32,000 bases of DNA from Acaryochloris thomasi RCC1774 (GTDB taxonomy: Bacteria; Cyanobacteriota; Cyanobacteriia; Thermosynechococcales; Thermosynechococcaceae), in NCBI RefSeq assembly GCF_003231495.1, contig NZ_PQWO01000002.1:240001-272000 (forward strand). The letters are read 5' to 3'. The translations under genes were made by a program, and so were the position numbers. Position 1 is the stretch's first letter, and every line of letters starts with the position of its first letter. The notes beneath the pieces were generated by a model, which saw only the letters and a program-made list of their open reading frames with translations, did no database searches and was not told where the DNA came from. Shown here one piece after another: positions 1,847 to 28,837 of the stretch.

Positions 1847-3898
1847 CTAATTGACTGGAATTTCTACTGTAAAAGTTGTGCCTTCGCCTTCTTGACTTTC
1901 AAAACCGATCTTGCCGCAGTGAAGATCAATTGACTTACTCACAATTGCAAGTCCTAAGCCTGTCCCTGATATTGTGCCCACATTGCTAGCTCTATTGAAC
2001 GAGTTAAATACATTTTCTTGCTCTGATTTTGGTATTCCTAATCCATTGTCTCTGACCTTGAAAATGATGTTGTTTTCTAGAGACTGAATGTCAAAATAAA
2101 CATTGCCCCCCAGTGGAGAGTATTTAACGGCATTCCCGAGTAAATTCCCCAATATATGCCTTAATAATTTCTCGTCCATCTTTACGTCAGTAAAATCACC
2201 TGAATGCGTGAAATGAATCTCATGATTCTCGGTGGTGATCTGAATGGATTCCACAAGATCTTCGCAAAATTCGATCAGCTGTATCGGAATTGGCTGAAAC
2301 TGAAGCTGACCCGCATCTGCTTTTCCTAAGAGCAGTACGTCATTCAAGAGGCCCGTCATGTGATGTACTGAAACCTGGATGCGACGAAGATGTTTTTTCT
2401 TCTTATCTTCTGGCCATTTATGGCTATAGTGCTCGATTAGCTCTGATGATGAAAGAATGGTCGCTAAAGGTGTTCTAAACTCATGGGATGTCATCGCTAC
2501 AAACCGTGACTTAAGTTCGTTCAGTTCTCGTTCTTTTTCGAGGGAGTTGCGAATGTCTTGCTCAGCCTTTTTCCGTTCGGTAATATCCCTGATGATTGCC
2601 ATGATCTCGTTCTCCGCGCTGAGGGCAATGCGAGCTTCAAAGTCTGTTTGCGAACCATTGCGTTGAAGCTGGTATTCAAAGATTTTTACTTCTTGCTCAA
2701 GCAGCACTTCGTTGATGCATTTCATTAAAGGTTTGGCGACTTCAGAAGGTAGAACTTCGTAGACTGTGCGCCCTAAAAAATCATCTGTCGGTAATGGAAT
2801 AGTCTCTTGATTGGCGGCTTTGTAGTTAACGAAAGTGCCATCCACACTAATGCGAAACATCCAGTCTGGGATGGCGTTAAGTAGGGCGCGATTGGTGGCA
2901 TAACTGGACCGCAATGCTTCTTCAGCACGCTGCCGCTCATCAATTTCACTAATCAGTCGTTTGTTCGCCTGCTCAAGTTCGGTTGTTCTTTCTTGAACGC
3001 GTACTTCTAGGTCGTCATGGGCTTTTTGTAGGACTTCGCGAAATCTTCGCTCGCTGTTGTGCAGTGCTGCTTGGGTTTGCTTCTTCTCGGTGATGTCAAT
3101 GAGATAGATCCGAATGAGTTCACTGGTTTCTAGGCAGTGAACGGATTGGTTATAGATACAGTCTCGGTGGGTGATCTCACGCTCAAAGAAAGCATCTTCG
3201 TTCTGTTGAACCCGCTCAATAAGGCCGGCGAGCACAGGATGCTGTTGTTGTTGGCGGGGTAAGTCTGGGAACTGCCGGGTGGCGGCTGGATTGAGGTAGG
3301 TAATCTGTCCGGTGCTGTCAACTTCGATGATCGGGTTGATAATTAGCTCGGGAAAGGAGGCTAAACGGACAAGGGAAGCTTCATTATCTTCAACCTGTCC
3401 GCTGATGGTTTCGAAGGGGTTATGAAGGCCGGACAGAAAACCGGACATATCGTCGGTTTCGCAGGAGGTGAGAAAGTCGATGTCGGCGGGGTCTGAGGTG
3501 GCGAAGTAGCGGGCCATGACGTTGCCCCCAAAGATAATCACGTCTCCGTGGACGAGGTTATGGGAATAGCAGCGCTTGCTGTTGATTGAGATGCCGTTGG
3601 TGCTGCGCTGGCCCTGGAGGTTGCCGTCTACGATTCGAAACTGGTGGGTGACGGCTTGAGGGGTGGTCACTCGTAAAAGGATGGCGTGGTGGCGCGAGAT
3701 GGTTTCTGAGACTAAGACGATGGTGTTGCTCTCGCCTCGGCCAATGGTGCAGGTTGCGGCTTCTAGGGCAACGGTTCGCTTTCCCTTTTGGTCTTCGATC
3801 AGGAGTAAGTGGTGAATGGGGCGCTGTTGCTCTCGCTCTTGAACGTTACTTGAGCGGGTTTTTTCGCGGGGGCGACCGCCGATGATTTGGGTATGCAA
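1847..3898 (-). CDS. Sensor histidine kinase with N-terminal FHA domain: FHA - PAS-like - coiled coil - PAS - HisKA - HATPase_c
   Basis: FHA: TIGRGESNTIVLVSETISRHHAILLRV...STNGISINSKR...GDVIIFGG. PAS cap: SFPELIINPIIEVDSTGQITYLNPA. H-box: MTSHEFRTPL. N/G boxes: LLGNAVKYSP...DNGLGIP...GTGLGLAIV. Confidence 0.9.
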   Translation of the reverse strand: MHTQIIGGRPREKTRSSNVQEREQQRPIHHLLLIEDQKGKRTVALEAATCTIGRGESNTIVLVSETISRHHAILLRVTTPQAVTHQFRIVDGNLQGQRSTNGISINSKRCYSHNLVHGDVIIFGGNVMARYFATSDPADIDFLTSCETDDMSGFLSGLHNPFETISGQVEDNEASLVRLASFPELIINPIIEVDSTGQITYLNPAATRQFPDLPRQQQQHPVLAGLIERVQQNEDAFFEREITHRDCIYNQSVHCLETSELIRIYLIDITEKKQTQAALHNSERRFREVLQKAHDDLEVRVQERTTELEQANKRLISEIDERQRAEEALRSSYATNRALLNAIPDWMFRISVDGTFVNYKAANQETIPLPTDDFLGRTVYEVLPSEVAKPLMKCINEVLLEQEVKIFEYQLQRNGSQTDFEARIALSAENEIMAIIRDITERKKAEQDIRNSLEKERELNELKSRFVAMTSHEFRTPLATILSSSELIEHYSHKWPEDKKKKHLRRIQVSVHHMTGLLNDVLLLGKADAGQLQFQPIPIQLIEFCEDLVESIQITTENHEIHFTHSGDFTDVKMDEKLLRHILGNLLGNAVKYSPLGGNVYFDIQSLENNIIFKVRDNGLGIPKSEQENVFNSFNRASNVGTISGTGLGLAIVSKSIDLHCGKIGFESQEGEGTTFTVEIPVN

Positions 3899-10699: not shown

Positions 10700-13435
10700 T
10701 TACTGTGCTTCACCCATCAGCATAAAGGCCGCCCAGTCTTTGGGATTGGGGTGCTGCTGACGCGTGATCAGCATGGCTTGGCGTAGAGCCTGGGCTTTAT
10801 TGAGAGTAGATTTCTGGCGATAAAATTCCGTCATCAGTGCTGCGGTGGGGGCATCAGGAACTGACCATAGCGAAACGACGATGCTTGGGGTGCCTGCTGC
10901 CATAAACGCCCTGGCTAAACCGACGACGCCATCGCCCGTAATGGTTCCGATTCCAGTGTTACAGGCACTGAGAACAACGAGGTTGGCCTGGAGTCTGAGA
11001 TTGATGATTTCGGCGGTGGTGAGGAAGCCATCGGTGCTGGAAAGGGGAGCCGAAGGGGATGAGGGAGCCATGCTGGCAGAAGAGGGGGTGAGGGCAATCG
11101 CGCCGGGGGTATCTAGGCTGAGTTCATCTAGGAGGCCGTGGGTTGCCAGGTGGATGGTGCTGGCAGTGGTCATCTGTTGAACGACAGCGGTTTCTGTCGC
11201 TGCAGGGCCAATGAGGGCTTGCGTGTTGAGGAGAGTTGCGATCGCAACTGCTTCCTGCTCAGCTCCGGGCAATGGTGTGAGGGGCTGCCGTCTTGAACCC
11301 ACTTGAATGGAAGGCATCTGGGGATTGCCAACCACGAGGCTTTCGCCAGGACCGGACGGAGCTTTGCGCTGTTCTCGCGTGAAGGCTAGCAGTTGAATCG
11401 AGGGCGAACTGACCAGCGTGTGCTTTAGAATCAATGGCCCCTCATCACTCTGGAGCGCGGGGAAGGGCACCAGAAAGAGTTCTCGATGGGGAATGATCAC
11501 AACATGCTGTTCAGGATCGGTGGGCAGCAAATCGGCAATGGGTTCAATCAAAAGTTGATGCAGTTGGCGTAAAGGCGGCGTGCCCGTCTTGTCCGTAGAG
11601 AGATTGGTGGCGACGATAGCAATTCCGCCTCTGTCCTTGATGCCTATTGCTTCCTGAGTTGCCTCAATTAAATCCGGTAGGGACTGATCCGTCAGATCCA
11701 CCGTTCGGAGTTGAATCGCTCCACTGGGAGCAATCACCCAAATCAAAAGCTGATCTTCAAGTAGCGAATACTCGACGAGTGTAGAATCCTGGGCACGGGC
11801 GATGTCTCGTAGTTCCTGGACTGTCAGGGGTGCTTTTGGGGGCCGAGGGTGAGTCGTCTGTGCTTCGAAGCGGGAGGCGAGCAGCTCGATGAAGGCGCGG
11901 GCGCGGCTCCGTTCGGAAACCTCCAAGGCTGCAATATCCTGGCCCTGAGCAATCAGAGCAGATTGCAGGTGCTGATACGTGGCCGCTTGGGTCTCAAAGA
12001 GGGCCACCTGATGCTCATCTGAGAGTCCTGGCCGCAGCGACTCCCAAATCTCAATAGCCTCTAAGAGGTTCGCAGCCGCCTTAGGATACTGCTGAGCTTG
12101 CAAAAGGGCTTGCCCCATATTGTGAAGCGTTAGGCCCATACCGGGCTGATCTGCGGTCCGGCGTTGGATCTCTAGGGCTTGTTCGAAGGTCTGCAGTGCC
12201 CGCTGCATTTGCTCTTGGTCAAGGTAGACCTCTCCCAGATGGTTAAGCGTTGCCCCAATCCCGACCTGATCGTCATGCGTCCGGGCGAGGCTGAGGGCTG
12301 TTGTCAAAGCCTCAATTGCGTTGGAGAGCTTCCCTTGCCTGAAATAGGCCACCCCCCGCGCATCCAGGATCAGGCGTTCACCCCCTGCTTTCCCCGGATA
12401 GCTGGGCGGGAGATATTGGAAGAGCCGCCAGGCTTGTTCGAGGGAGGCCAGCGCCTGAGGTGATCTCCCTTGCTGGATTTGAATCCGAGCAAGGCGATGG
12501 TGCAATAATCCTTCTTCTTTGGGGTGTTCATACAGCCCTCCATCAAATCGGAGTGGGTTTTGGGTCTGGAGGGTTGCGATCGCATCCTCTAAAACTCGTC
12601 CTGCCTTGTCATATTGCCCCAAGCGCTCGTAGGCAGAAGCCAAGCTAGTTAGCGAGATCCCAATCCCTTCTTGATCCTCAATCTCACGCTGCAGCGTCAA
12701 TGCGCGTTGGTAATAAGTGAGCGCCTGAGGATACTGACCGAGCTGTAAATAGAGAGTCCCTAACTGATGCAGACAGTCCCCTTGGCGCTGTAGGTCGCTA
12801 TCTTGCTGATAGATTGCGAGTGCCTGCTGAAAGAGAGACAAAGCCGTCTGAAGATTTCCCCGCTGGCTCTGCTGCTCTGCCCTCGTGTAGATCTCTTGCC
12901 CCGCATCAGAGAAAAGACAGACTGTCGCAGGCTTCACCGGACAGACCTTCGGGTTGATCGGATTCGTGAGGAGATTTAGCAACCGGAGATGCTTAAGACT
13001 TGCCAGTTTACTCACCTCTCGAACCTGATTTTGCTCAAGCACCACATATTCCAGATTCGTTAGCTTCGCTAAGGGACGGATATCCTGAATCTGATTGAAG
13101 GCCAGATTGAGATGTTTCAGTTGCGGGAGCGTCACTAGGGGAGTGATGTCTGTGAGTTCTTGATTAATCAAATCTAGGCTGAGTTGAGTCTCAAGAACTT
13201 GCTCCGCCTGCCGACAATCTGTTGTCGCTGCGACCTGGAGCATTGCCATGATCGTCCGCTGCTGAGCAATTGAAAACTGATCTTGCTCTCTACACCAATC
13301 GGTAAAACGATTTGACTGCGAAGGGGCTGCATTTAGCTTCTCGAGACCTAGTCCTGATCCCATCGCCAACAGCAGTATTCCAGCCCACTGAGCAACCAAC
13401 ATTGCCGCACAGCGACTGCGCCTTCCCCTCTTCAT
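10700..13435 (-). CDS. Secreted LRR - TPR - CHAT domain protein (caspase-like protease fold)
   Basis: Signal peptide. About four LRRs: LDLINQELTDITPLVTLPQLKHLNLAFNQIQDIRPLAKLTNLEYVVLEQNQVREV... About 8-9 TPR-like repeats with recurring ALxxYQQAL / LGxxY patterns. C-terminal CHAT domain with the His/Cys dyad context IHLATHG and LVVLSACNTG. Confidence 0.85.
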   Translation of the reverse strand: MKRGRRSRCAAMLVAQWAGILLLAMGSGLGLEKLNAAPSQSNRFTDWCREQDQFSIAQQRTIMAMLQVAATTDCRQAEQVLETQLSLDLINQELTDITPLVTLPQLKHLNLAFNQIQDIRPLAKLTNLEYVVLEQNQVREVSKLASLKHLRLLNLLTNPINPKVCPVKPATVCLFSDAGQEIYTRAEQQSQRGNLQTALSLFQQALAIYQQDSDLQRQGDCLHQLGTLYLQLGQYPQALTYYQRALTLQREIEDQEGIGISLTSLASAYERLGQYDKAGRVLEDAIATLQTQNPLRFDGGLYEHPKEEGLLHHRLARIQIQQGRSPQALASLEQAWRLFQYLPPSYPGKAGGERLILDARGVAYFRQGKLSNAIEALTTALSLARTHDDQVGIGATLNHLGEVYLDQEQMQRALQTFEQALEIQRRTADQPGMGLTLHNMGQALLQAQQYPKAAANLLEAIEIWESLRPGLSDEHQVALFETQAATYQHLQSALIAQGQDIAALEVSERSRARAFIELLASRFEAQTTHPRPPKAPLTVQELRDIARAQDSTLVEYSLLEDQLLIWVIAPSGAIQLRTVDLTDQSLPDLIEATQEAIGIKDRGGIAIVATNLSTDKTGTPPLRQLHQLLIEPIADLLPTDPEQHVVIIPHRELFLVPFPALQSDEGPLILKHTLVSSPSIQLLAFTREQRKAPSGPGESLVVGNPQMPSIQVGSRRQPLTPLPGAEQEAVAIATLLNTQALIGPAATETAVVQQMTTASTIHLATHGLLDELSLDTPGAIALTPSSASMAPSSPSAPLSSTDGFLTTAEIINLRLQANLVVLSACNTGIGTITGDGVVGLARAFMAAGTPSIVVSLWSVPDAPTAALMTEFYRQKSTLNKAQALRQAMLITRQQHPNPKDWAAFMLMGEAQ

Positions 13436-15090: not shown

Positions 15091-15318
15091 CTAGTCGTCG
15101 TAGATTCGGCACTCTGCTGCTTCAGGATTGTCGTCGCAGTACTGCTCTAGAGAGCTTTTCTTTTTCTCAGGCTTGCTGCGCTGGTGTGAAGCTTCTGCTT
15201 GCAATTCCTCGACGGCATCCCAAGCTGCCGCGCATTCGCCAGACTGGGCACCTTTGGTATCACAAGCCTCTCGGGCTTGCTCGAGTTCTTGTTCAATTTT
15301 TTCTTTAAGGTCAGCCAT
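15091..15318 (-). CDS. cp12: CP12 (Calvin-cycle GAPDH/PRK regulator)
   Basis: 75 aa. N-terminal Cys pair (EACDTKGAQSGEC), core AWDAVEEL, and C-terminal CDDNPEAAEC followed by RIYDD. Confidence 0.92.
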   Translation of the reverse strand: MADLKEKIEQELEQAREACDTKGAQSGECAAAWDAVEELQAEASHQRSKPEKKKSSLEQYCDDNPEAAECRIYDD

Positions 15319-15468
15319 ATCGTGTCTTTTTATTCCTTGTTCAGAGGTGTTCCGTTCACTGATTTAGTTTAGCCTGAGTCCACCGTAGTCGACATCCATC
15401 TGAAGAAAGGCCCTTTTCATACTGTTTTAGGGATCTTGGCTGACGGGTAGGTCTTTAAATCTAAAATC

Positions 15469-15610
15469 TGTGCCCGTTTATGGAACCTTGACCTCCAAAA
15501 GTGGAAAAAAGTGTAATCCTGGGCACATTGAAGGTGTATTTACAACGTCTTTGTCCATTTACAGAACCTTAACCCCGAAAAATTAAGGAATTGTAAGCTT
15601 GGACACATTC
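15469..15610. repeat. Imperfect direct repeat, two units with a period of 80-81 bp
   Basis: By my hand alignment, 15469..15500 matches 15550..15581 at 24 of 32 positions, and 15511..15530 matches 15591..15610 at 15 of 20 positions. Confidence 0.6.
15512..15527. promoter_or_regulatory. CRP/NtcA-family-like palindrome, copy 1 (TGTAA-N6-GCACA)
   Basis: TGTAATCCTGGGCACA. It retains the GT-N10-AC core. I see no convincing -10 box at the expected distance. Confidence 0.25.
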
Positions 15611-15634
15611 ATTGCCAATCTGTGTTCATATACT
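15592..15634 (+). promoter_or_regulatory. Candidate NtcA/CRP-type class II promoter: TGTAA-N6-ACACA, 22 nt, TATACT
   Basis: GTA (15593..15595), N8, CAC (15604..15606), N22, TATACT (15629..15634). This matches the GTA-N8-TAC-N22-TAN3T geometry with one half-site mismatch. It lies about 35 nt upstream of the 48-codon ORF. Confidence 0.35.
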
Positions 15635-15668
15635 AATTTCCCATAAGCCATAGATAGGGAAAGACGAA

Positions 15669-15815
15669 ATGTTCACGATTTGCGATGACGTCAACCAAAC
15701 TGATTTGCTTCGGTCTTGGGTTGAAGAACTGACGGCATTCACACCACAGCAGGTTGAGAATGTTGTTCAACAGATTCAAGAGAGTGATGATGAGCGTTTT
15801 GTCTCAGTTGCCTAA
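15669..15815 (+). CDS. Small acidic hypothetical protein (48 aa), below the track's size cut-off
   Basis: Hand translation: MFTICDDVNQTDLLRSWVEELTAFTPQQVENVVQQIQESDDERFVSVA*. A purine-rich AGGGAAAG lies 8-15 nt upstream. The ORF ends 62 nt before the glycosyltransferase ATG. No homology support is available here. Confidence 0.35.
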   Translation: MFTICDDVNQTDLLRSWVEELTAFTPQQVENVVQQIQESDDERFVSVA

Positions 15816-15877
15816 GTTTGTGATGGGCTTGGTTTGTTAAACTGCGATGGCTATCCAGAGCAGGTTGACCGAGCTGA

Positions 15878-16954: not shown

Positions 16955-17218
16955 CTAGCCTCTGTAGTCTCGTTTCAGTTCGTGTAGAGCTTTGTCTGCA
17001 CACCAAGCCCGCGATCTATCGGGGTGCTTCTGGGCAGCATGATTAATCAGACGTTCAGCCGTTGATGGCCCCACTCGCTTTCTGAGTTGTCTTTCACTGG
17101 CGCTCGTTCCTGAGGTCGATCGCTTTCCTGGCCGATGGCGGGACTGATTTTGCCCCGAGGTGTAGGTTGCCAGCATCCATCCAATGACGATGAATGCTAA
17201 CAAAATGACCCACAACAT
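16955..17218 (-). CDS. Small single-pass membrane protein, hypothetical
   Basis: With ATG at 17218 the product starts directly with a TM helix (MLWVILLAFIVIGWMLATY). A basic linker and a C-terminal AERLINHAAQKHPDRSRAWCADKALHELKRD block follow. The track start (17245) is a TTG. Confidence 0.45.
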   Translation of the reverse strand: MLWVILLAFIVIGWMLATYTSGQNQSRHRPGKRSTSGTSASERQLRKRVGPSTAERLINHAAQKHPDRSRAWCADKALHELKRDYRG

Positions 17219-17436
17219 GGCTTGATTTATCCCTAATAAGTTCAATAAATGCCGATCTCAGCACCGGTAAAGGGGAACTGAGTCACTGATCTTAGGGTGG
17301 ACGGCTTCCCTTTAGATTCCGACACTTTGACTGGAGTTGAAATAAAACCTTTGCTCAAACATAACGGTGTAGTAAGAATGGATCGGTCAAGCTTTGCTGG
17401 ATCCTGTCCCCTTTACCGAGATTGCGAGAAGCGCTA

Positions 17437-17890: not shown

Positions 17891-18679
17891 ATGACCTATT
17901 GCCTCGGAATCAAGACCCATTTTGGCTTGGTGATGGCTGCTGACTCATTAACCAATGCCGGAGTGGATTACGTTTCAAAGGTACAAAAGCTGTTTGACTT
18001 TTCTCGACCTGGAGAGCGGGTCATTTTGATTAGCAACGCTGGTAATCTGTCCATGACCCAGAACGTTTTAACGCTGGTGCGGCGGGATATCAAGAATCAG
18101 GCAGAAAATGACATCTACGATCTGCCGACGATGTTTGAAGTGGCTCAGTACCTGGGCAAGAGAGTCCGTGACGTCGCCGATCAGAATCGAAACTGGATGC
18201 AGCAGGACAAGATTGACTTCTCCTGTAGCTTTTTGTTGGGGGGACAAATCAAGGGAGAAGCGCCAGAGCTATACATGATTTACAGTCAAGGGAACTTCTT
18301 GCGGGCGACCAAGGAGACACCCTATTTGCAAATTGGCGAAATTAAATACGGCAAGCCGATTCTAGATCGCACCATTAGCTATGAGACTCAGTTGGACGAT
18401 GCTGCTAAGTGCGCCCTTCTCTCGCTAGATTCCACTATGAAATCGAATATTTCTGTTGGCCCCCCCATTAATATGGTGATGTACGAGACCGATAGCCTTG
18501 AGATTGTCCATCAGGTCAAATTCTTTGACGCTGATCCCTATTTAAATAAGATTCGCCAATCTTGGGAGCAATCCGTCAAGCAGGCTTTTCAGCAGTTGCC
18601 GAGTCCAGATTGGCAACGGGTCGATACCCGCGAGCAAGAAGATAACTGGCTATCTCCCAGCAATATTATTCCTGATTAG
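17891..18679 (+). CDS. Anbu: proteasome-beta-like Ntn-hydrolase ('ancestral beta subunit' peptidase)
   Basis: It starts MTYCLGIK..., so removal of the initiator Met exposes Thr1 with no propeptide. Asp sits at mature position 17 (AADS) and Lys at about 32. Size is ~260 aa. GGAG lies 10 nt upstream of the ATG. The genomic context includes ATP-grasp, alpha-E and transglutaminase genes. Confidence 0.85.
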   Translation: MTYCLGIKTHFGLVMAADSLTNAGVDYVSKVQKLFDFSRPGERVILISNAGNLSMTQNVLTLVRRDIKNQAENDIYDLPTMFEVAQYLGKRVRDVADQNRNWMQQDKIDFSCSFLLGGQIKGEAPELYMIYSQGNFLRATKETPYLQIGEIKYGKPILDRTISYETQLDDAAKCALLSLDSTMKSNISVGPPINMVMYETDSLEIVHQVKFFDADPYLNKIRQSWEQSVKQAFQQLPSPDWQRVDTREQEDNWLSPSNIIPD

Positions 18680-18720
18680 ATGCCCCTGAGCACCGCAGTA
18701 TCTGCAGAGAGGAATGAGGA

Positions 18721-19440
18721 ATGCCAACAGGAATAGTCGCTTTCTTGCTTGTCTTCCTTCTAGTAGCTGGGATCTGTTACTTCACACTGTTTTACCCCCA
18801 AGCGAAAGTGAAGAGGATCAAGAAGAATCTGGTTCTCAGGGTTAAGGGAGCAGATGCTCGCTACTCTGATCTCCCTCTGGGAGATTTAGGTCTGTTTTAT
18901 GAAGTCAAAGATAGGAGTAGGGTTCGTGTCGTACTGCCAAGGCTAACTCCAGACGGAGATGTTCAATATATTTACTCTTGGCACAACCTCAAATCGATAA
19001 GTATTCCGACTCTAAGCAATACAAAAGCTCAGACAGCAGGAAACTTTGGGGCATTGCTGGGCCTCGCGCACATGATTGATGAGCATATAAGATTTGTTGA
19101 GCCAGAGATTTTAAGCCTTAGAAGCCAGTGGCAAGAGATCAATGAATTGCTCGGCTTGGTCACTACATCAGATCTTTATGCTAGCCAACAGGGAATTTAT
19201 GAGCGTGCGCTTGTACAAGTTGAGAATTTACTCGATAAAGCAGAAGAACTAGAGCAAGTCTATATCCGCTTCATTCGAGAAGCTTTGATTAGCAGAAAGC
19301 TGGGCAACTACGATCCAGGCTCACTTCCAAGCAATAGCCTAATGATAGATACGAAGTATCAAAAAATTAAGGAGGAATATCAATATATGAAGGATATGGC
19401 AACCGCCTATGCTGAACTACGAGACATGCATCGTCTCTAG
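18721..19440 (+). CDS. Hypothetical membrane-anchored protein with a C-terminal coiled-coil region (no family recognised)
   Basis: 239 aa. N-terminal TM helix IVAFLLVFLLVAGICYFTLF, a beta-rich middle, and a helical Q/E/K-rich end. A strong GAGGAATGAGGA purine tract lies just before the ATG, 41 nt after the Anbu stop. Confidence 0.65.
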   Translation: MPTGIVAFLLVFLLVAGICYFTLFYPQAKVKRIKKNLVLRVKGADARYSDLPLGDLGLFYEVKDRSRVRVVLPRLTPDGDVQYIYSWHNLKSISIPTLSNTKAQTAGNFGALLGLAHMIDEHIRFVEPEILSLRSQWQEINELLGLVTTSDLYASQQGIYERALVQVENLLDKAEELEQVYIRFIREALISRKLGNYDPGSLPSNSLMIDTKYQKIKEEYQYMKDMATAYAELRDMHRL

Positions 19441-20276
19441 ACTATGAGCTTAATGGATACTTCTGTTGTGAGTGTGGTGGCGCAACCAGAACGATGGGTA
19501 CCTGACACTGGCACGGTACTGCGAGGCTGATAGCTGGTTACTAAAGCAACATGGCGATCGCAAGTCACAAGTCCCAACGTCGGGTCATACCCTCGCCAAC
19601 CGGCACCGGGTAAATAAACCTCAGCCCAAGCATGGAGCGTTTGCTCGCAGGCCGGATCTCCCTGCTCATAGCCGCTGACAAAACGGGCGGCTAAACCCGC
19701 GGCTCGACACGCGGCCATAAATAGGACCACAAAATCACGACAGGATCCCGTTTTTCGACCCCAGGTGATCTCAGGAGGCCAGGGTGGACCTGTGGGACGT
19801 TCTTGATAGTCACACTGATCATAGATGCGCTGATTTAAGGTCGAGAGAAACTCTACTGTATTCCAGTCAACGGCCACTGCGATCTCGTGGGCCAGTTGAG
19901 TGGCAGCCGGAGCGCTGGTGTGGTCTAGATAAGGTGCAAGTGCGGTTCTGATGGAGCTGGGGTAGTCGATGGGGCCTTCGGTGGCCCAGGGCTCCAACAG
20001 ATAATTGAAGGGGTTGGTGATGTGAGTCGTAACGGTTGAGATGGCTGTAATGCTCAGGGTTGCCGTCGATTGAGGGGACCACCAACACTTTGCGATCGCA
20101 TCTCCCTCGGCATCCAATAACTGCGTTATCTCCAGCGGATTGGGTTCCACCTGTAGCTGATATGAATCTAGGCTTTGAAAGCCATCTGACCGAGGACGCA
20201 GGCGCAAAACATGAGGTTCTAAGATTGCCGGTTGCGCGTAGGTGTACCGAGTGACGTGACTAATTTGATACCGCAC
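19437..20276 (-). CDS. Transglutaminase-like cysteine protease-fold protein (Bact_transglu_N + transglutaminase core)
   Basis: N-terminus: MRYQISHVTRYTYAQPAILEPHVLRLRP. Catalytic Cys: GSCRDFVVLF. His: HAWAEVYLPGAGW. Asp: GYDPT. GTG start 2 nt after the alpha-E stop. Confidence 0.88.
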   Translation of the reverse strand: MRYQISHVTRYTYAQPAILEPHVLRLRPRSDGFQSLDSYQLQVEPNPLEITQLLDAEGDAIAKCWWSPQSTATLSITAISTVTTHITNPFNYLLEPWATEGPIDYPSSIRTALAPYLDHTSAPAATQLAHEIAVAVDWNTVEFLSTLNQRIYDQCDYQERPTGPPWPPEITWGRKTGSCRDFVVLFMAACRAAGLAARFVSGYEQGDPACEQTLHAWAEVYLPGAGWRGYDPTLGLVTCDRHVALVTSYQPRSTVPVSGTHRSGCATTLTTEVSIKLIV

Positions 20277-20278
20277 GC

Positions 20279-21319
20279 CTAATAACTCTGTGGGGTAGCG
20301 AAGGTTTGGCTTTGGTTCTGGCCCTGGCCTTGGCTCTGGCTTTGACTCTGAGGCGCAGCCGTGGTCTCTAGCGGCGGCAGGGCAAAAAATGTTTCATAGA
20401 TGCCATTATTGACCTCGTTCATGGACTGCTGCAGTTGATCCAAAAACTCATGGATACCCCGATCGATAATCTCATCGATCATCAAGTATTCCATTTCAGA
20501 ACGGAGGCGACCCAGCGAGCGCTCAATGGGGATATGCCAAGACCCTAGGGGCGTACCGGTGATCCGATGGAGAGACTGCTCGGCCTGCCAGAGGCAAAAC
20601 TGAACCGACCGTGGAAATTCTGGATCGAGGATCAGAAAACCTGAAACCCCCGCCGGAGTGATGCGATGTTGCTGGCTGCTCTGACGGTACATTTCATAGG
20701 CACTGGCCGATTTTAAGAGGGCCATCCATCCGAGTTCGTCGAGGAGTGTCCCGACATCGGTGGCAGAAGGAAGCAACACATAGTATTTGACATCTAGAAT
20801 GCGGGAGGTTTTATCGGCCCGCTCTAAAAAGCGACCCATGCGGCCAAAATGCCAAGCTTCGTTGCGGCTGAGAGTGGCATCCGTGGTGCCGACAAAGGAA
20901 TGACTGGCCTGTTTGACCTGCTCTAAAAAATCACTGAGATCGGATATCGATAAATCCTTAGACGCTTTTGACACCATTTGGTGAGCGGCATTCACCTCAC
21001 TCCACATTTCGGACGAAATAATTTCGCGTACGGAACGGGCATTCTCTCGGGCCATCTGCCAGCAGGAGAAAATCGAGTTGGGATATTGCTGATCAAAGGT
21101 GAGAAACTGAATGACGTTCTCTGCGGTCGCTTCGCCGTAATGCTGTTCAAAGAAAGCGCGATCGCCTGTTGTGGTTACTAATGGCTGCCACTGCTGCTCA
21201 ATTCCGGTGGGAATATCCAGCATCAGATTGATGTTGACTTCTAGAAATCGAGCGACGTTTTCAGCGCGCTCAATATAGCGATTGAGCCAGTAAATTGAAT
21301 TGGCAACGCGACTAAGCAT
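20279..21319 (-). CDS. Alpha-E domain protein (DUF403 type)
   Basis: Begins MLSRVANSIYWLNRYIERAENVARFLEVN, the canonical alpha-E opening. All-helical, 346 aa. The C-terminal tail is PQSQSQSQGQGQNQSQTFATPQSY. Confidence 0.88.
   Translation of the reverse strand: MLSRVANSIYWLNRYIERAENVARFLEVNINLMLDIPTGIEQQWQPLVTTTGDRAFFEQHYGEATAENVIQFLTFDQQYPNSIFSCWQMARENARSVREIISSEMWSEVNAAHQMVSKASKDLSISDLSDFLEQVKQASHSFVGTTDATLSRNEAWHFGRMGRFLERADKTSRILDVKYYVLLPSATDVGTLLDELGWMALLKSASAYEMYRQSSQQHRITPAGVSGFLILDPEFPRSVQFCLWQAEQSLHRITGTPLGSWHIPIERSLGRLRSEMEYLMIDEIIDRGIHEFLDQLQQSMNEVNNGIYETFFALPPLETTAAPQSQSQSQGQGQNQSQTFATPQSY
20306..20350 (-). repeat. Hexanucleotide (CAR-NNC)n coding repeat giving (Gln-X) x 7.5
   Basis: Minus strand: CAG AGT CAA AGC CAG AGC CAA GGC CAG GGC CAG AAC CAA AGC CAA = QSQSQSQGQGQNQSQ. 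Confidence 0.8.
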
Positions 21320-21467
21320 TTTGGATCGAACTCTCTTATGGGCGTAAATTAGGCATCTTGCACTAGTCCCTCGGCCTGTGAGAATCGGGGGGCTGGCTTC
21401 GACGTGAGCGGAGTCGAATGGGGGGCCAAGTGCAGAAACTTTCGCCCATCCATGCAGGAATAGTTCT

Positions 21468-22901
21468 TTACTCGCACAGAACCCAGGTATCTTTGCTACC
21501 GCCCCCTTGAGAGGAGTTTACGACTAGAGACCCTTTTTTCAATGCCACCCGCGTCAGTCCCCCTGGATGAACGTAAATATCTTGGCCGTAGAGAATGTAG
21601 GGGCGCAAATCGACGTGACAGCCGACGAACTCCTGTTCCAGAATGGTGGGGACGCGAGAGAGACAGAGAGTGGGCTGGGCGATATACTTTCGCGGATTGG
21701 CTTTAATCTTTTGGGCAAATTCTTCCCGTTCAGCTTGGGTTGACTGGGTACCCACCAGCATTCCGTAGCCACCGGATTCATCGGCAGATTTGACCACGAG
21801 CTGATCGAGGTTTCCTAAAACATGGTCTAACTGTTTAGGTTCCCAGCAGAGATAGGTGGGGACGTTGGCTAAAATCGGGTCTTCACCCAGGTAATAGCGA
21901 ATCATGTTAGGGACGAAAGCGTAGATCACCTTGTCGTCAGCGATGCCGGTGCCGAGAGCATTTGCGATCGCAACTCTCCCTTCTCGATACACCTGCATTA
22001 ACCCCGGCACCCCCAGCAGCGAATCTGCCTGAAACTCTAGGGGGTCAATAAAGGTGTCGTCAATGCGGCGATAAATCACGTCAACCCGCTGCAGTCCTTG
22101 GGTGGTCCGCATTTGCAGGTGTCCATCTGCCACTACTAGATCGCGACCCTCTACCAGCTCCACGCCCATCTGTTGCGCCAGATAGGAATGCTCAAAATAG
22201 GCCGAGTTATAGATCCCCGGCGTCAGGACCACCACGGTTGGGTGAGCAATATTTTCGGGGACCAGATGCAGCAGCGTATTGAGTAGTTGGCTGGGGTATC
22301 CATCCACTGGCTGAATCGGGATCTCTTCAAATACCTGCGGGAAGGTGCTTTTCATCACCCGTCGGTTTTCCAGCACGTAGGAAACCCCTGAAGGGCAGCG
22401 CAAATTATCTTCAAGAACATACCACTGGCCGTTGCGATCTCGGACTAGATCAGACCCCGTGATGTGGCACCAAACGCCCTCAGGTGGATTCAAGCCCATG
22501 CAGGGCTTCTGAAACCCCGTTGCCGAGAGAATCAGCTCCGCCGGAATCTTGCCATCTTTGATGATTTTTTGATCGTGATAGATGTCGTCAATAAAGAGGT
22601 TTAGGGCATGAATCCGCTGCTTTAGCCCTGTTTCTAAATGACGCCACTCCTGAGCCGAGATGATGCGGGGGATGACGTCGAAGGGAAAGATGCGATCGCT
22701 TCCTTGATTGTCGCCGTAGACTCCAAACGTCGCCCCGAGTTTGAAGAGTGCCTGCTGAGCCGCCTGCTGTCGCTGTAGCAGCTCCCCTGGGCCAAGCTGA
22801 TGGATACGGTCTACGAGAGCAGCTCCTGCCGGTCTTGGCTGATCGGCTGATTGAAACAGTTCATCGTAGAAGTTATCTAATTCATAATTGTCAAATCGCA
22901 A
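21468..22901 (-). CDS. Circularly permuted type-2 ATP-grasp protein (DUF404/DUF407 type amidoligase)
   Basis: 477 aa. FPFDVIPRII, GSDLVRD..G.WYVLEDNLRCPSGVSYVLENR, and the C-terminal LTRVALKKGSLVVNSSQGGGSKDTWVL signature I associate with this family. Confidence 0.9.
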   Translation of the reverse strand: MRFDNYELDNFYDELFQSADQPRPAGAALVDRIHQLGPGELLQRQQAAQQALFKLGATFGVYGDNQGSDRIFPFDVIPRIISAQEWRHLETGLKQRIHALNLFIDDIYHDQKIIKDGKIPAELILSATGFQKPCMGLNPPEGVWCHITGSDLVRDRNGQWYVLEDNLRCPSGVSYVLENRRVMKSTFPQVFEEIPIQPVDGYPSQLLNTLLHLVPENIAHPTVVVLTPGIYNSAYFEHSYLAQQMGVELVEGRDLVVADGHLQMRTTQGLQRVDVIYRRIDDTFIDPLEFQADSLLGVPGLMQVYREGRVAIANALGTGIADDKVIYAFVPNMIRYYLGEDPILANVPTYLCWEPKQLDHVLGNLDQLVVKSADESGGYGMLVGTQSTQAEREEFAQKIKANPRKYIAQPTLCLSRVPTILEQEFVGCHVDLRPYILYGQDIYVHPGGLTRVALKKGSLVVNSSQGGGSKDTWVLCE

Positions 22902-26722: not shown

Positions 26723-28837
26723 GTGACTAATCCCGAGGAGAATCAACGTCAGCGTTTTCGACATTTGTTTATTGTTGATGACGCTGAGGGACGACGCACC
26801 ATTTCCCTCGAAGCCGCTACCTATTCCATTGGCCGGGATGTCACCAACTCCATCGTGCTGCACTCTAAAATGGTGTCGCGGCAGCACGCTATCTTGCTGC
26901 GGGTTACAGCTCCCGAAACCTCTAATTACTTGTTTCGGATCATTGATGGTGATCTCCAGGGTAAAAGAAGCACCAATGGCCTAATCGTGAATGGTCGCCG
27001 TCTCTTTTCCCATGACCTTAAACATGGTGATGTTGTCGTTTTCGGCGGAGATGTAAAGGCACAGTATTTTGTGGCTTCCAACCTCTCAGATGAAGCCTTC
27101 GACGAGTTCCGCGACACCAGCGACCTCTCCACCATTCTCAAAAATTCCGTCAACCCCTTTCAAACCCTCGTCCCCACAGACGCTGACTTCCAAGATATGA
27201 GCGAAGCCGCCCTCGTCCGGCTGGCCTCTTTCCCCGAACTGACCCCCACTCCGATTCTCGAAATTGATTTGTCCGGCACCGTCACCTATATGAATCCCTC
27301 TGCCGTCATGCAATTTGAGAATTTATCCGAAGCCGGTTTAGCGCACCCTCTCCTAGAAGGACTGCTGACCATGGTGAAAGTGGACAGTCCTGAACAGGGT
27401 AATTTCTTTGTCCGTGAGGTCAGCATCAAGGATTTGGTCTTTGAGCAGTCCGTTCACTACATTTCTGAAAGTGACTTAATTCGCAGCTATATCACCGATA
27501 TTACCGAGCGAAAGCGCGCTGAAGAGCAGTTGCGTCACCAGGCTCAGCGAGAAGCAATCATTAACCGGATTGTGCAGGCTATGCGTGGCACAATGGTCAC
27601 CGCAGAGGTCTTAGATATTACCGTGGGCTTATTGCTAGAAGCCTTGGGGGCCAGTCACTGCCTCATTGTTCCGATTGAATCAGAGAGCGACTCCCCCGTC
27701 TTCTACGCTAGTGACCGATCCGTTGAGCGCCCTGACCTTGTACAGGCAAACGAGCGATTTTTGCGCAATTCTCAAGACTCTCTTGCTCAGGGGCAGCAGG
27801 TGGTGTTTGAAAGCGGCGATACGTCACTTGCGCTAGAGCTGCAGGCTATCTGCGATCAGTGTCAGATTCAAACCCTCCTGTTAACGCCGCTTCTCTATAT
27901 GCAGCGGTATCTGGGCAGCATTAGTCTCTATCAATGTGGGCCATCAACCAAAGAAGCCCGCCAGTGGAATCTAGATGAGCTCAACCTCGTTGAAACCATT
28001 GCCAATCAGTGTGCGATTGCGGTTCATCAGGCCCAGCTTTATCGTCAAGTCCAAGATCTCAACACTGACCTAGAGCGGCAGGTCGAAGAGCGCACCGCTC
28101 AGCTGCAGCAAAAAATGCAGGAGCTTGAACGCCTGAACATTCTTAAAGACGACTTTCTCAGCACTGTCTCCCATGAGCTGCGAACGCCCATGTCTAATAT
28201 CAAAATGGCGATCCATATGCTCAATCAGTTTCCTCTCGAAGATCGACAAACCCGTTACGTCAAGATTTTAGAAGCTGAATGTAGCCGCGAAACTGAACTC
28301 ATCAACGACCTCCTAGATCTGCAGCGCTTAGAAGCAGATACCGAACCGATGCCTTTAGAAATGTTGGTGTTGTCCGAGTGGTTAGCCGGTGTGCTAGAGC
28401 CCTTTCAATCTAGGGCCCGCGATCGCAAGCAACATCTAAACATTCACTGCGATCCCGAAGCCGTGGCGGTGCAGTCCAATCGCGTTAGCCTGGAACGAAT
28501 TTTAGCTGAGCTGCTCAATAATGCCTGCAAATATACCCCTGATGGTGGCGATGTGTACTTCAATATTGAACGTTTGCAGAACCCTGACCCCTTTGTCCGT
28601 TTTCAGGTGACCAACCAGGCGGAAATTCCTGCCTCTGAGCTGCCTCGCATTTTCGATAAATTTTATCGAGTGCCCAACGCCGACCCCTGGAAGCAGGGTG
28701 GAACAGGTCTCGGGCTGGCTCTTGTTGAAAAGCTAGTCGAACAGCTCCAGGGCAATATCAACGTCACCAGTTCCCAAGGACAGACGACGTTCACTATCGA
28801 GCTACCCCAGCCAGAAACGGTCTCGGTTGAGGTGTAA
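26723..28837 (+). CDS. Sensor histidine kinase with N-terminal FHA domain: FHA - PAS-like - GAF - coiled coil - HisKA - HATPase_c
   Basis: FHA: SIGRDVTNSIVLHSKMVSRQHAILLRV...STNGLIVNGRR...GDVVVFGG. PAS cap: SFPELTPTPILEIDLSGTVTYMNPS. GAF-like region at ~280-440. H-box: VSHELRTPM. N/G boxes: LLNNACKYTP...GGTGLGLALV. GTG start per the track. Confidence 0.9.
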   Translation: MTNPEENQRQRFRHLFIVDDAEGRRTISLEAATYSIGRDVTNSIVLHSKMVSRQHAILLRVTAPETSNYLFRIIDGDLQGKRSTNGLIVNGRRLFSHDLKHGDVVVFGGDVKAQYFVASNLSDEAFDEFRDTSDLSTILKNSVNPFQTLVPTDADFQDMSEAALVRLASFPELTPTPILEIDLSGTVTYMNPSAVMQFENLSEAGLAHPLLEGLLTMVKVDSPEQGNFFVREVSIKDLVFEQSVHYISESDLIRSYITDITERKRAEEQLRHQAQREAIINRIVQAMRGTMVTAEVLDITVGLLLEALGASHCLIVPIESESDSPVFYASDRSVERPDLVQANERFLRNSQDSLAQGQQVVFESGDTSLALELQAICDQCQIQTLLLTPLLYMQRYLGSISLYQCGPSTKEARQWNLDELNLVETIANQCAIAVHQAQLYRQVQDLNTDLERQVEERTAQLQQKMQELERLNILKDDFLSTVSHELRTPMSNIKMAIHMLNQFPLEDRQTRYVKILEAECSRETELINDLLDLQRLEADTEPMPLEMLVLSEWLAGVLEPFQSRARDRKQHLNIHCDPEAVAVQSNRVSLERILAELLNNACKYTPDGGDVYFNIERLQNPDPFVRFQVTNQAEIPASELPRIFDKFYRVPNADPWKQGGTGLGLALVEKLVEQLQGNINVTSSQGQTTFTIELPQPETVSVEV

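What the first reader, a model, noticed from the sequence alone, without database searches (positions are those of the whole stretch)
18721..19440. AT-rich orphan membrane/coiled-coil gene wedged between Anbu and the transglutaminase
Seen in sequence: a 239-aa ORF with one N-terminal TM helix and a long helical C-terminus follows Anbu after 41 nt, with a strong purine-rich ribosome-binding tract (GAGGAATGAGGA-ATG). Its TAG (19438..19440) overlaps the transglutaminase stop codon on the other strand (19437..19439) within a shared CTAG. Composition differs from the neighbours. My hand counts give 25/60 GC (19081..19140) and 19/60 GC (19321..19380), against 34/60 in the adjacent transglutaminase gene (19681..19740). 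I recognise no family. Inference: either a laterally acquired insertion, or a lineage-specific partner that tethers or regulates Anbu at the membrane.
Basis: partly seen in the sequence, partly recalled or inferred. Interest (0 to 1): 0.6.

Follow-up and report, generated by a model that had tools for sequence, protein, structure and literature searches.

The report
Unnamed cyanobacterial membrane protein beside Anbu
The ORF is a real gene from an uncharacterised family found only in cyanobacteria, it sits in the gap between Anbu and the transglutaminase operon only in this genome, and nothing comparative links it to Anbu.

Summary
A 239-aa ORF lies at 18721..19440 (+), 41 nt after Anbu. It has a GAGAGGA tract 8 nt before the ATG, and its TAG shares a CTAG with the transglutaminase stop. 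It has the lowest GC (0.435) and GC3 (0.429, z = -3) of 27 window ORFs.

It is not an orphan. The window matches Acaryochloris thomasi RCC1774 (C1752_00808). The protein belongs to an unnamed family: 41 cyanobacterial species and 138 clusters at 50% identity. No Pfam, NCBIfam, PADLOC, PHROG or PDB relative was found. Informative pairs give dN/dS of 0.05-0.22.

Predicted architecture: an N-out/C-in membrane anchor, a small possibly SH3-like beta domain, and three long helices, all facing the cytoplasm.

None of 66 homologue loci carries Anbu or its operon genes, and none of 6 other Anbu loci carries a homologue. Two other cyanobacteria have Anbu and the transglutaminase convergent with 26 or 161 nt between them and no gene. 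So the gene is best read as an insertion into that junction.

AT-richness marks the subfamily in most hosts, so it does not date a transfer. The A. thomasi copy lacks the conserved upstream boxes of its relatives and is probably read through from Anbu. Function is unknown; a membrane-tethered adaptor is the best guess. This is ordinary accessory-gene biology.

The parts
18721..19440 (+). Coding sequence of the 239-aa protein (C1752_00808 of Acaryochloris thomasi RCC1774). It belongs to an unnamed cyanobacteria-restricted family.
   Evidence: ORF. 100% match to P0001. 34-sequence alignment with 20 invariant columns. Family dN/dS 0.05-0.22.
18707..18713 (+). Shine-Dalgarno-like GAGAGGA tract. 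The GAGG core lies 8 nt before the ATG.
   Evidence: Sequence. It is unusual for the family: only 1 of 35 homologues has an SD core at -16..-7.
18680..18720 (+). 41-nt spacer between the Anbu stop and the target ATG. No terminator-like or promoter-like site was found. It lacks the two upstream boxes conserved in relatives.
18733..18795 (+). N-terminal transmembrane anchor (about residues 5-25). It is followed by a basic flank KVKRIKKNLVLRVK at residues 28-41. Predicted topology is N-out/C-in.
   Evidence: Hydropathy maximum 2.77 at residue 5. 7 K+R against 1 D+E in residues 26-45. The same pattern holds in nearly all family members. AlphaFold2 helix 3-34.
18823..19020 (+). Small beta domain (residues 35-100) carrying the invariant Y83, S86, W87 and H88 of the YIYSWH motif. 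The fold is possibly SH3-like.
   Evidence: Strands 38-41, 56-63, 67-75 and 81-89. Domain-only model with pLDDT 84. Only weak Foldseek hits to SH3b/SH3 domains, best E = 0.26.
19045..19434 (+). Acidic three-helix region (residues 109-238, pI 4.9). It carries the family-wide S150-x2-Y153, Q156, Y160 and I185-R186-E187 motifs. This is the most widely conserved module of the superfamily.
   Evidence: The same module is fused to a Ser/Thr kinase in P0278.
19437..19440 (.). CTAG shared by the two convergent stop codons. The target TAG is at 19438-19440 and the transglutaminase TAG on the minus strand is at 19437-19439.
17891..18679 (+). Anbu (proteasome-type protease), the upstream neighbour and probable source of transcription.
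   Evidence: Pfam Proteasome, E = 4e-08. Homologues named proteasome-type protease.
19437..20276 (-). Transglutaminase-like protein, last gene of the convergent Anbu-associated operon. Its C-terminus is intact.
   Evidence: Bact_transglu_N and Transglut_core. 56% identical over 278 aa to the L050 orthologue.
20279..21319 (-). Alpha-E domain protein of the Anbu-associated operon.
   Evidence: Pfam Alpha-E, E = 7.5e-104.
21468..22901 (-). Circularly permuted ATP-grasp protein of the Anbu-associated operon.
   Evidence: Pfam CP_ATPgrasp_2, E = 7.6e-173.

Best explanation
The ORF is a genuine protein-coding gene of an unnamed family found only in cyanobacteria.

Architecture (predicted). The protein is a single-pass membrane protein with a very short N-terminus outside and the rest in the cytoplasm. 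The cytoplasmic part is a small beta domain, possibly SH3-like, followed by an acidic bundle of three long helices.

Location (shown by comparison). In Acaryochloris thomasi one copy sits in the tight convergent junction between Anbu and the transglutaminase/Alpha-E/ATP-grasp operon. That junction is empty in other cyanobacteria with the same layout. The adjacency to Anbu is therefore an accident of where the gene landed, not a conserved partnership.

Expression (inferred). The copy lacks the promoter-like and leader boxes conserved upstream of many relatives and instead carries a Shine-Dalgarno-type site 41 nt after Anbu. It is most likely expressed by read-through from the Anbu promoter. Its transcript must end inside the antisense strand of the transglutaminase gene.

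Function (low-confidence inference). It is probably a non-enzymatic, membrane-tethered adaptor or scaffold. It would bind partners through the beta domain/helix-1 region, where the subfamily-invariant YxYSWH and E121-H122 residues lie. It may oligomerise through the helical bundle.

Composition. The AT-richness reflects an accessory-gene character shared by its subfamily in most hosts.
For: Real gene:
- 51 homologues at 34-64% identity.
- 41 species in the genome collection, all cyanobacteria.
- 138 clusters at 50% identity in the exhaustive search.
- 20 invariant columns in the 34-sequence alignment.
- dN/dS 0.05-0.22 for pairs with dS 0.2-1.5.

Architecture and topology:
- AlphaFold2 pLDDT 82 and pTM 0.70. 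Beta domain alone pLDDT 84.
- The basic flank lies on the C-terminal side of the anchor in nearly all members.
- In 2-TM variants and in the 4-TM kinase fusion, the domain still comes out cytoplasmic.

Not an Anbu partner:
- 0 of 66 homologue loci carry an Anbu-operon gene, and 0 of 6 Anbu loci carry a homologue.
- The nearest homologues are in unrelated contexts.
- The neighbour census shows only clade-specific neighbours: DUF3172 in 10 loci, ABC2_membrane in 6, and the PF27270 'Alr1449' family in Nostocales.

Insertion:
- L050 and L056 show Anbu and transglutaminase convergent with 26 and 161 nt between them and no gene.
- The Anbu and transglutaminase C-termini are intact in the window.

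Read-through:
- The gap is 41 nt, with no terminator-like or promoter-like site in the spacer.
- The upstream box TTTGNGATACTTRAR occurs once per locus in 10 loci and is absent from the window.
- An SD core is present here but in only 1 of 35 relatives.

Composition:
- Lowest GC3 of 27 ORFs.
- Homologues are AT-richer than their neighbours in all 32 loci, and GC3 z is below 0 in 28 of 32.
Against: - No expression data. Read-through from Anbu is inferred only from spacing and the absence of signals. A weak promoter-like site (9 of 12 matches) lies inside Anbu at 18525-18552, although the number of such sites in the region equals chance.
- The insertion polarity rests on two outgroup genomes. 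Three other cyanobacteria have Anbu unlinked from the operon, so the local gene order is fluid.
- The adaptor function has no direct support. No structural or sequence relative of known function was found.
- The invariant His/Glu/Ser residues could equally mark a metal or catalytic site.
Confidence: 0.7

Rival explanations
1. A. thomasi-specific Anbu partner. After landing next to Anbu, the protein was recruited to tether or regulate the Anbu particle at the membrane. The two would be made from one transcript and interact physically.
For: - Same strand, 41-nt gap, own SD-type site and no terminator between the genes.
- Both proteins are predicted to be cytoplasmic, so contact is possible.
- No interactor or activator of Anbu is known (PMC5666114).
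Against: - 0 of 66 homologue loci are near any Anbu-operon gene, and 0 of 6 other Anbu loci have a homologue.
- The A. thomasi protein keeps all family-invariant residues, with no sign of a new interface.
- Petrachloros has an unrelated toxin-antitoxin pair in the same position after Anbu. This suggests the site simply tolerates insertions.
Confidence: 0.07
2. Recent lateral transfer from a low-GC donor. The AT-richness would be un-ameliorated donor composition, and the gene would be a newcomer with little integration into host biology.
For: - GC3 z = -3 and codon-usage distance second highest of 26 ORFs.
- Patchy distribution. No other named Acaryochloris appears among the hits.
- The gene sits in an otherwise conserved junction.
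Against: - The nearest known homologue is about 60-64% identical, and the A. thomasi protein is a long lone branch at the base of its clade.
- There are no mobile-element hallmarks and no phage or plasmid copies.
- The same AT offset occurs in most hosts, including z = -5.3, -4.1 and -3.3 in Vacuolonema, Microcoleus FACHB-1515 and FACHB-471.
- The stop-codon overlap and the host-type ribosome-binding site suggest a settled locus.
Confidence: 0.15
3. Self-contained stress or anti-phage module. The family would be a mobile single-gene system whose membrane anchor acts as an effector and whose cytoplasmic domain senses a trigger.
For: - Variable genomic context, AT-richness in most hosts, and its own conserved promoter-like box in several genera.
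- Membrane anchor plus cytoplasmic domain architecture.
- Fusion to a Ser/Thr kinase in one relative suggests a signalling or sensing module.
Against: - No PADLOC or PHROG match for the protein.
- The immediate neighbours are not enriched in defence genes.
- A Leptolyngbya-type clade shows stable synteny with DUF3172 and host-like GC3, as expected of a resident housekeeping-type gene.
Confidence: 0.06
4. Spurious ORF: a chance open frame in AT-rich intergenic DNA.
For: None beyond the lack of annotation as anything but 'hypothetical protein'.
Against: Full-length homologues in 41 species, 20 invariant columns, dN/dS well below 1, and a confident fold prediction.
Confidence: 0.01

Closest known systems
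Unnamed 'hypothetical protein' family of cyanobacteria (for example H6G27_26770 of Nostoc linckia FACHB-104, JYQ62_12135 of Nostoc sp. UHCC 0702, and Vacuolonema iberomarrocanum and Leptolyngbyaceae homologues)
   Same: - Full-length alignment of about 234 aa.
- N-terminal anchor with a basic flank.
- YIYSWH, E-H, S-x2-Y and IRE-x-LI motifs.
- 33-64% identity to the target.
   Different: - The A. thomasi copy is the only one next to Anbu.
- It lacks the upstream boxes conserved in many relatives.
- It has an SD-type site instead.
- It is a long lone branch in the family tree.
Anbu operon (ATP-grasp COG2308, Alpha-E COG2307, transglutaminase COG1305, Anbu; Valas and Bourne 2008, PMC3235984; Fuchs et al. 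2017, PMC5666114)
   Same: Physical position between Anbu and the transglutaminase, and probable co-transcription with Anbu.
   Different: - It is not one of the four conserved components.
- It is absent from the five other cyanobacterial Anbu contexts inspected.
- No homologue elsewhere lies near the operon.
SH3-like small beta-barrels (bacterial SH3b domains such as in 3m1u, and eukaryotic SH3 domains)
   Same: The size and strand order of the predicted beta domain resemble them. Best Foldseek probability is 0.98 with TM-score 0.51 normalised to the query.
   Different: All E-values are 0.26 or worse, there is no sequence similarity, and the model is a prediction. This is a resemblance only.
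Helical-hairpin membrane-remodelling proteins (ESCRT-III/CdvB, PspA/Vipp1) and NINJ1
   Same: Long antiparallel helices next to a membrane. Weak Foldseek hits to NINJ1 (E = 0.075, target-normalised TM-score 0.68) and to CdvB (probability 0.75).
   Different: No Pfam PspA_IM30 or Snf7 match. Query-normalised TM-scores are 0.31-0.36. Generic long helices explain the hits.

Membership tests
Unnamed cyanobacterial family (C1752_00808-like) | Full-length homology to other members | tested here: met
   E-values from 1e-35 to 1e-87 at 90-100% coverage. Profile search recovers 46 clusters at E <= 1e-30.
Unnamed cyanobacterial family (C1752_00808-like) | N-terminal membrane anchor followed by a basic flank | tested here: met
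   Hydropathy maximum 2.77 and 5 K+R in the 15 residues after the helix. The same pattern holds in nearly all 41 members.
Unnamed cyanobacterial family (C1752_00808-like) | Invariant motifs Y83/S86/W87/H88, H122, S150/Y153, and I185/R186/E187 | tested here: met
   All are present in the window protein.
Unnamed cyanobacterial family (C1752_00808-like) | Conserved upstream boxes (TTTGNGATACTTRAR, and RCAAAACYDGCTYYR abutting the ATG) seen in many clade members | tested here: not met
   0 matches in the window at up to 2 mismatches. The alignment shows no similarity. This is a locus feature, not a protein feature.
Anbu operon component | Recurrent co-location with Anbu, transglutaminase, Alpha-E and ATP-grasp across genomes | tested here: not met
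   0 of 66 homologue loci and 0 of 6 Anbu loci.
Anbu operon component | Phyletic co-occurrence with Anbu at whole-genome level | not testable with these tools
   Only loci of about 12 kb were available, not whole genomes.
Anbu operon component | Physical interaction with Anbu | not testable with these tools
   No complex prediction or experiment was available.
Genomic island or mobile-element cargo | Atypical composition relative to the host | tested here: met
   GC3 z = -3 and the lowest of 27 ORFs. Codon-usage distance second of 26. The same offset is seen family-wide.
Genomic island or mobile-element cargo | Flanking direct or inverted repeats, an integrase or transposase, or a tRNA target | tested here: not met
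   No meaningful flanking repeats. No tRNA in the window. The neighbours are Anbu and the transglutaminase.
Genomic island or mobile-element cargo | Copies on phages or plasmids | tested here: not met
   None in IMG/VR, the plasmid collection or PHROGs.
Known anti-phage defence proteins (PADLOC) | Match to a defence-system profile | tested here: not met
   0 families at E <= 1. The immediate neighbours are not defence-enriched.
PspA/Vipp1/ESCRT-III superfamily | Sequence-profile or structural match to the helical hairpin core | tested here: not met
   No Pfam hit at E <= 0.1. The Foldseek CdvB hit has E = 0.37 and TM-score 0.32.
SH3-like beta-barrel fold | Significant structural superposition | tested here: inconclusive
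   Best hit 3m1u_B has E = 0.26, probability 0.98 and TM-score 0.51. Several SH3 domains follow at E = 0.45-1.4.

The most novel reading that the evidence does not exclude
The family could be a self-contained, mobile single-gene module. It has its own conserved promoter-like box and leader, it is AT-rich in most hosts, and it has no fixed neighbours. It would encode a new kind of membrane-anchored cytoplasmic sensor or effector. In A. thomasi it would have been stripped of its own control region and wired into the Anbu transcript, where it could provide the missing membrane tether or regulator for Anbu.
Probability: 0.07. Interest if true: 0.6.

Novelty: new member of a known kind. Interest (0 to 1): 0.22.

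Why it matters
The result removes a tempting but unsupported lead on the still-unknown function of Anbu. The membrane protein next to it in this genome is a one-off neighbour.

What remains of modest value:
- A cyanobacteria-only protein family of at least 138 sequence clusters with no Pfam entry and no structural relative in PDB or BFVD.
- A confident predicted architecture: membrane anchor, small beta domain and three-helix bundle, all cytoplasmic.
- Conserved upstream boxes in several genera that could guide a regulatory study.
- A clean example of a single gene inserted into a convergent gene junction so tightly that the two stop codons overlap.

Tried and rejected
Searches on the protein that found nothing:
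- Pfam and NCBIfam gave no family. The only entry was a sub-threshold YajC hit on the membrane helix.
- Pfam scanned over 96 family members gave no shared family.
- PADLOC and PHROGs gave nothing significant.
- The PDB sequence-profile search gave only coiled-coil noise at E >= 0.028.
- Foldseek of the full model against PDB and BFVD, and of the beta domain against PDB, gave nothing at E <= 0.001.

Searches for mobility that found nothing:
- No relative in viral contigs.
- No match in plasmids.
- No flanking repeats.
- No tRNA and no Rfam family in the window.

Other checks:
- The promoter and terminator scan gave counts at chance level and nothing in the spacer.
- The neighbour census of 85 flanking genes against Pfam and PADLOC found only clade-specific neighbours and no functional theme.
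- The contexts of two distant members gave no clue: DUF3352 and mutS in one, and unannotated genes in the other.
- The conserved upstream region of relatives had no Rfam hit and no consensus RNA structure.
- Literature searches found nothing for Alr1449. DUF3172 appeared only as an uncharacterised membrane protein, Slr1660.
- The A. thomasi genome paper contained none of the GC-content or gene-transfer terms searched.

Rejected readings: spurious ORF; conserved Anbu partner; phage or plasmid cargo; member of the PspA/ESCRT-III superfamily.

Full report
**Observation**

It runs 18721..19440 on the plus strand and encodes 239 aa. The Anbu gene (17891..18679; Pfam Proteasome) ends 41 nt upstream. 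The spacer ends in GAGAGGAATGAGGA, and the GAGG core at 18709..18712 lies 8 nt before the ATG.

The TAG at 19438..19440 overlaps the minus-strand stop of the transglutaminase gene (19437..19439) in a shared CTAG.

Over the whole gene:
- GC is 0.435, the 2.4th percentile of 720-bp windows in this 32-kb window.
- GC3 is 0.429, the lowest of 27 ORFs (mean 0.552, sd 0.041, z about -3).
- Codon-usage distance from the other genes is the second highest of 26.

So the composition anomaly is real but moderate. Another stretch near position 1801 is lower still, at 0.408.

**Not an orphan**

The protein is 100% identical to hypothetical protein C1752_00808 of Acaryochloris thomasi RCC1774.
- A word-indexed search found 51 homologues at 34-64% identity. 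Every named one is cyanobacterial: Nostoc, Calothrix, Desmonostoc, Vacuolonema, Leptolyngbyaceae, Oculatellaceae, Chroococcidiopsis and Pseudanabaenales.
- A scan of one genome per species found the family in 41 species, all cyanobacteria.
- An exhaustive profile search of 1.84 billion representatives found 138 clusters at E <= 0.001 and 46 at E <= 1e-30.
- The distant members that carry a name are also cyanobacterial.

A 34-sequence alignment has 20 invariant columns, including Y83, S86, W87, H88, H122, S150, Y153, Q166, E175, I185, R186 and E187. Nei-Gojobori estimates for pairs with usable divergence give dN/dS of 0.05-0.22. This is a real gene under purifying selection.

No Pfam, NCBIfam, PADLOC or PHROG family covers it or any of 96 relatives scanned.

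**Architecture**

AlphaFold2 with the family alignment gives mean pLDDT 82 and pTM 0.70. The model has:
- an N-terminal helix at residues 3-34;
- a small sheet with strands 38-41, 56-63, 67-75 and 81-89;
- three long helices at 109-149, 154-193 and 205-238.

The only hydrophobic segment starts at residue 5. Four uncharged residues precede it, and KVKRIKKNLVLRVK follows it. Nearly all members show the same asymmetry. By the positive-inside rule, the bulk of the protein faces the cytoplasm.

Relatives with two membrane helices, and a relative in which the C-terminal helical module follows a Ser/Thr kinase domain and four hydrophobic segments, also place the module in the cytoplasm.

The helical part is acidic (pI 4.9) and the beta part basic (pI 9.7).

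Foldseek found no significant relative:
- For the whole model in PDB or BFVD, the best hits were NINJ1 at E = 0.075 and CdvB at E = 0.37.
- For the beta domain alone (pLDDT 84), the hits were weak and SH3-like, with the best at E = 0.26.

The helical module carrying the S-x2-Y and IRE-x-LI motifs is the most widely conserved part of the superfamily.

**Relation to Anbu**

The literature defines the Anbu operon as ATP-grasp, Alpha-E, transglutaminase and Anbu. It reports no interactor (PMC3235984, PMC5666114). The window holds all four. Anbu is on the plus strand and the other three are convergent on the minus strand.

I fetched 66 loci that encode homologues of the target, from genomes, assemblies and metagenomes. 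I searched each with the four operon proteins, and none has any of them within about 6 kb.

The closest homologues lie next to pheT, or between an OmpA-like gene and a CheA-type kinase.

Conversely, none of the six other loci that carry Anbu (five distinct cyanobacterial contexts) has a homologue of the target.

A census of the immediate neighbours in about 45 non-redundant loci shows only clade-specific companions:
- the PF27270 'Alr1449' family directly upstream in some Nostocales;
- DUF3172 directly downstream, and an ABC-2 permease divergent upstream, in a Leptolyngbya-type clade.

The census shows no defence-gene enrichment. The idea of a conserved Anbu partner is therefore not supported.

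**Insertion**

Lyngbya confervoides BDU141951 (L050) and a Leptolyngbyaceae genome (L056) have the same convergent layout. Anbu is followed on the other strand by transglutaminase, Alpha-E and ATP-grasp, with only 26 and 161 nt between the two stop codons and no gene.

In the window, both flanking proteins keep their conserved C-terminal residues (Anbu tail). The extra DNA is essentially 41 nt plus the gene itself. The simplest reading is a gene-sized insertion into a pre-existing convergent junction.

The order is not universal. In Petrachloros, Cyanothece PCC 7425 and another Acaryochloris, Anbu is unlinked from the operon. In Petrachloros, a PhdYeFM/PIN pair sits right after Anbu. This suggests the 3' flank of Anbu tolerates accessory genes.

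**How recent, and from where**

Nothing marks a recent event:
- There are no flanking repeats.
- There is no tRNA.
- There is no mobile-element gene nearby.
- There are no phage or plasmid copies.

In a neighbour-joining tree, the A. thomasi protein is a long lone branch at the base of the clade that holds the Nostocales, Oculatellaceae, Elainellaceae and several Leptolyngbyaceae sequences. Its nearest neighbour is 59.5% identical over the trimmed alignment.

The AT offset is not peculiar to A. thomasi:
- In all 32 homologue loci with enough flanking genes, the gene has lower GC than the mean of its neighbours.
- GC3 is lower in 28 of 32, with z below -2 in six. Examples are Vacuolonema at -5.3, Microcoleus FACHB-1515 at -4.1 and FACHB-471 at -3.3.
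- Only the clade with stable DUF3172 synteny is host-like.

Low GC is thus a trait of this subfamily. It is consistent with the general AT-richness of accessory genes (established knowledge), and it does not date the A. thomasi acquisition.

**Expression**

Many relatives from different genera share two non-coding boxes upstream of the ATG:
- TTTGNGATACTTRAR lies 35-65 nt upstream. It reads like an extended -10 element. It occurs exactly once per locus in 10 of 74 loci, always before this gene.
- RCAAAACYDGCTYYR abuts the ATG.

Only 1 of 35 relatives has a Shine-Dalgarno core at -16..-7. These boxes form no conserved RNA structure and match no Rfam family.

The window has neither box. It has an SD-type tract instead, and the scan found no promoter-like or terminator-like site in the 41-nt spacer.

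I infer that the A. thomasi copy is expressed by read-through from Anbu. Because the stops overlap, its transcript and that of the convergent operon must overlap in antisense. This is inference, not observation.

**Function**

Function is unknown. My committed best guess, at low confidence, is a non-enzymatic membrane-tethered adaptor or scaffold on the cytoplasmic face of the plasma or thylakoid membrane.
- The beta domain and the start of helix 1, carrying YxYSWH and E121-H122, would form a binding site.
- The helical bundle would mediate oligomerisation.
- The fusion of the helical module to a membrane Ser/Thr kinase in one relative fits a protein-interaction or signalling role.
- A metal or catalytic site formed by the invariant His, Glu and Ser residues is not excluded.

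**Verdict**

'Orphan' is wrong. The insertion reading is supported, and the Anbu-partner reading is not. The gene is one more member of an undescribed but ordinary conserved-hypothetical family of cyanobacteria. Interest is low to modest.

Noticed in passing
L012:5893-5907, L013:5935-5949, L024:5939-5953, L029:5177-5191, L046:5909-5923 and others (related loci, not the window): Two conserved non-coding boxes precede the homologues in several genera. TTTGNGATACTTRAR reads like an extended -10 and lies 35-65 nt before the ATG. RCAAAACYDGCTYYR abuts the ATG in place of an SD. The first box occurs once per locus in 10 of 74 loci and nowhere else in them. It is absent from the A. thomasi window. 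There is no Rfam hit and no consensus RNA structure.
   Followed up: partly
32 homologue loci (L001-L044): The family gene has lower GC than its neighbours in all 32 loci, and lower GC3 in 28 of 32 (z down to -5.3). The Leptolyngbya-type clade with conserved DUF3172 synteny is host-like instead. This suggests a mobile or accessory subfamily and a resident one.
   Followed up: partly
L001:7369-7947, L007, L008, L009, L010, L021: In some Nostocales, a 192-aa protein of the PF27270 'Alr1449' family lies directly upstream on the same strand, within about 10 to 150 nt of the homologue. In two short assemblies it is called as a fusion to a Peptidase_M16 protein. I found no literature on it.
   Followed up: partly
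L032-L041 (for example L040:6686-7339): In a Leptolyngbya-type clade, a DUF3172 protein (family of Slr1660, uncharacterised, with an N-terminal membrane helix) follows the homologue on the same strand after 35-74 nt. An ABC-2 permease is divergent upstream.
   Followed up: partly
P0278 (L074:2615-4633): A 672-aa cyanobacterial protein joins an N-terminal Ser/Thr kinase domain, four hydrophobic segments, and the C-terminal helical module of this family. Another relative (P0303) ends in a SHOCT domain.
   Followed up: partly
window 17891-22901; L050, L056, L047, L049, L055: In cyanobacteria, Anbu is either convergent with the transglutaminase/Alpha-E/ATP-grasp operon with almost no spacer (26 nt in L050) or unlinked from it. 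It was not seen in the co-directional four-gene operon described for proteobacteria. In Petrachloros, a PhdYeFM/PIN toxin-antitoxin pair follows Anbu.
   Followed up: partly
window 20279-20350: The Alpha-E protein ends in a low-complexity tail, QSQSQSQGQGQNQSQ. It is encoded by short tandem repeats of TGGCTTTGGTTCTG-like units.
   Followed up: no
window 1847-3898 (-) and 26723-28837 (+): Two histidine kinases with an N-terminal FHA domain lie in the window. One is FHA-PAS-HisKA-HATPase and the other FHA-GAF-HisKA-HATPase. The first is followed by a response regulator at 1157-1840. Its 3' part is the lowest-GC stretch of the window (0.408).
   Followed up: no
window 10700-13435 (-): A 911-aa protein with LRR, TPR and CHAT domains. 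CHAT is a caspase-like protease domain.
   Followed up: no
window 15091-15318 (-) and 15319-15877: A CP12 gene (Calvin-cycle regulator) is followed by a roughly 560-nt stretch with no long ORF and lower GC (0.45-0.47).
   Followed up: no
window 16955-17245 (-): A 96-aa ORF with one hydrophobic helix and a basic tail, with no Pfam match. I did not check whether it is a real gene.
   Followed up: no
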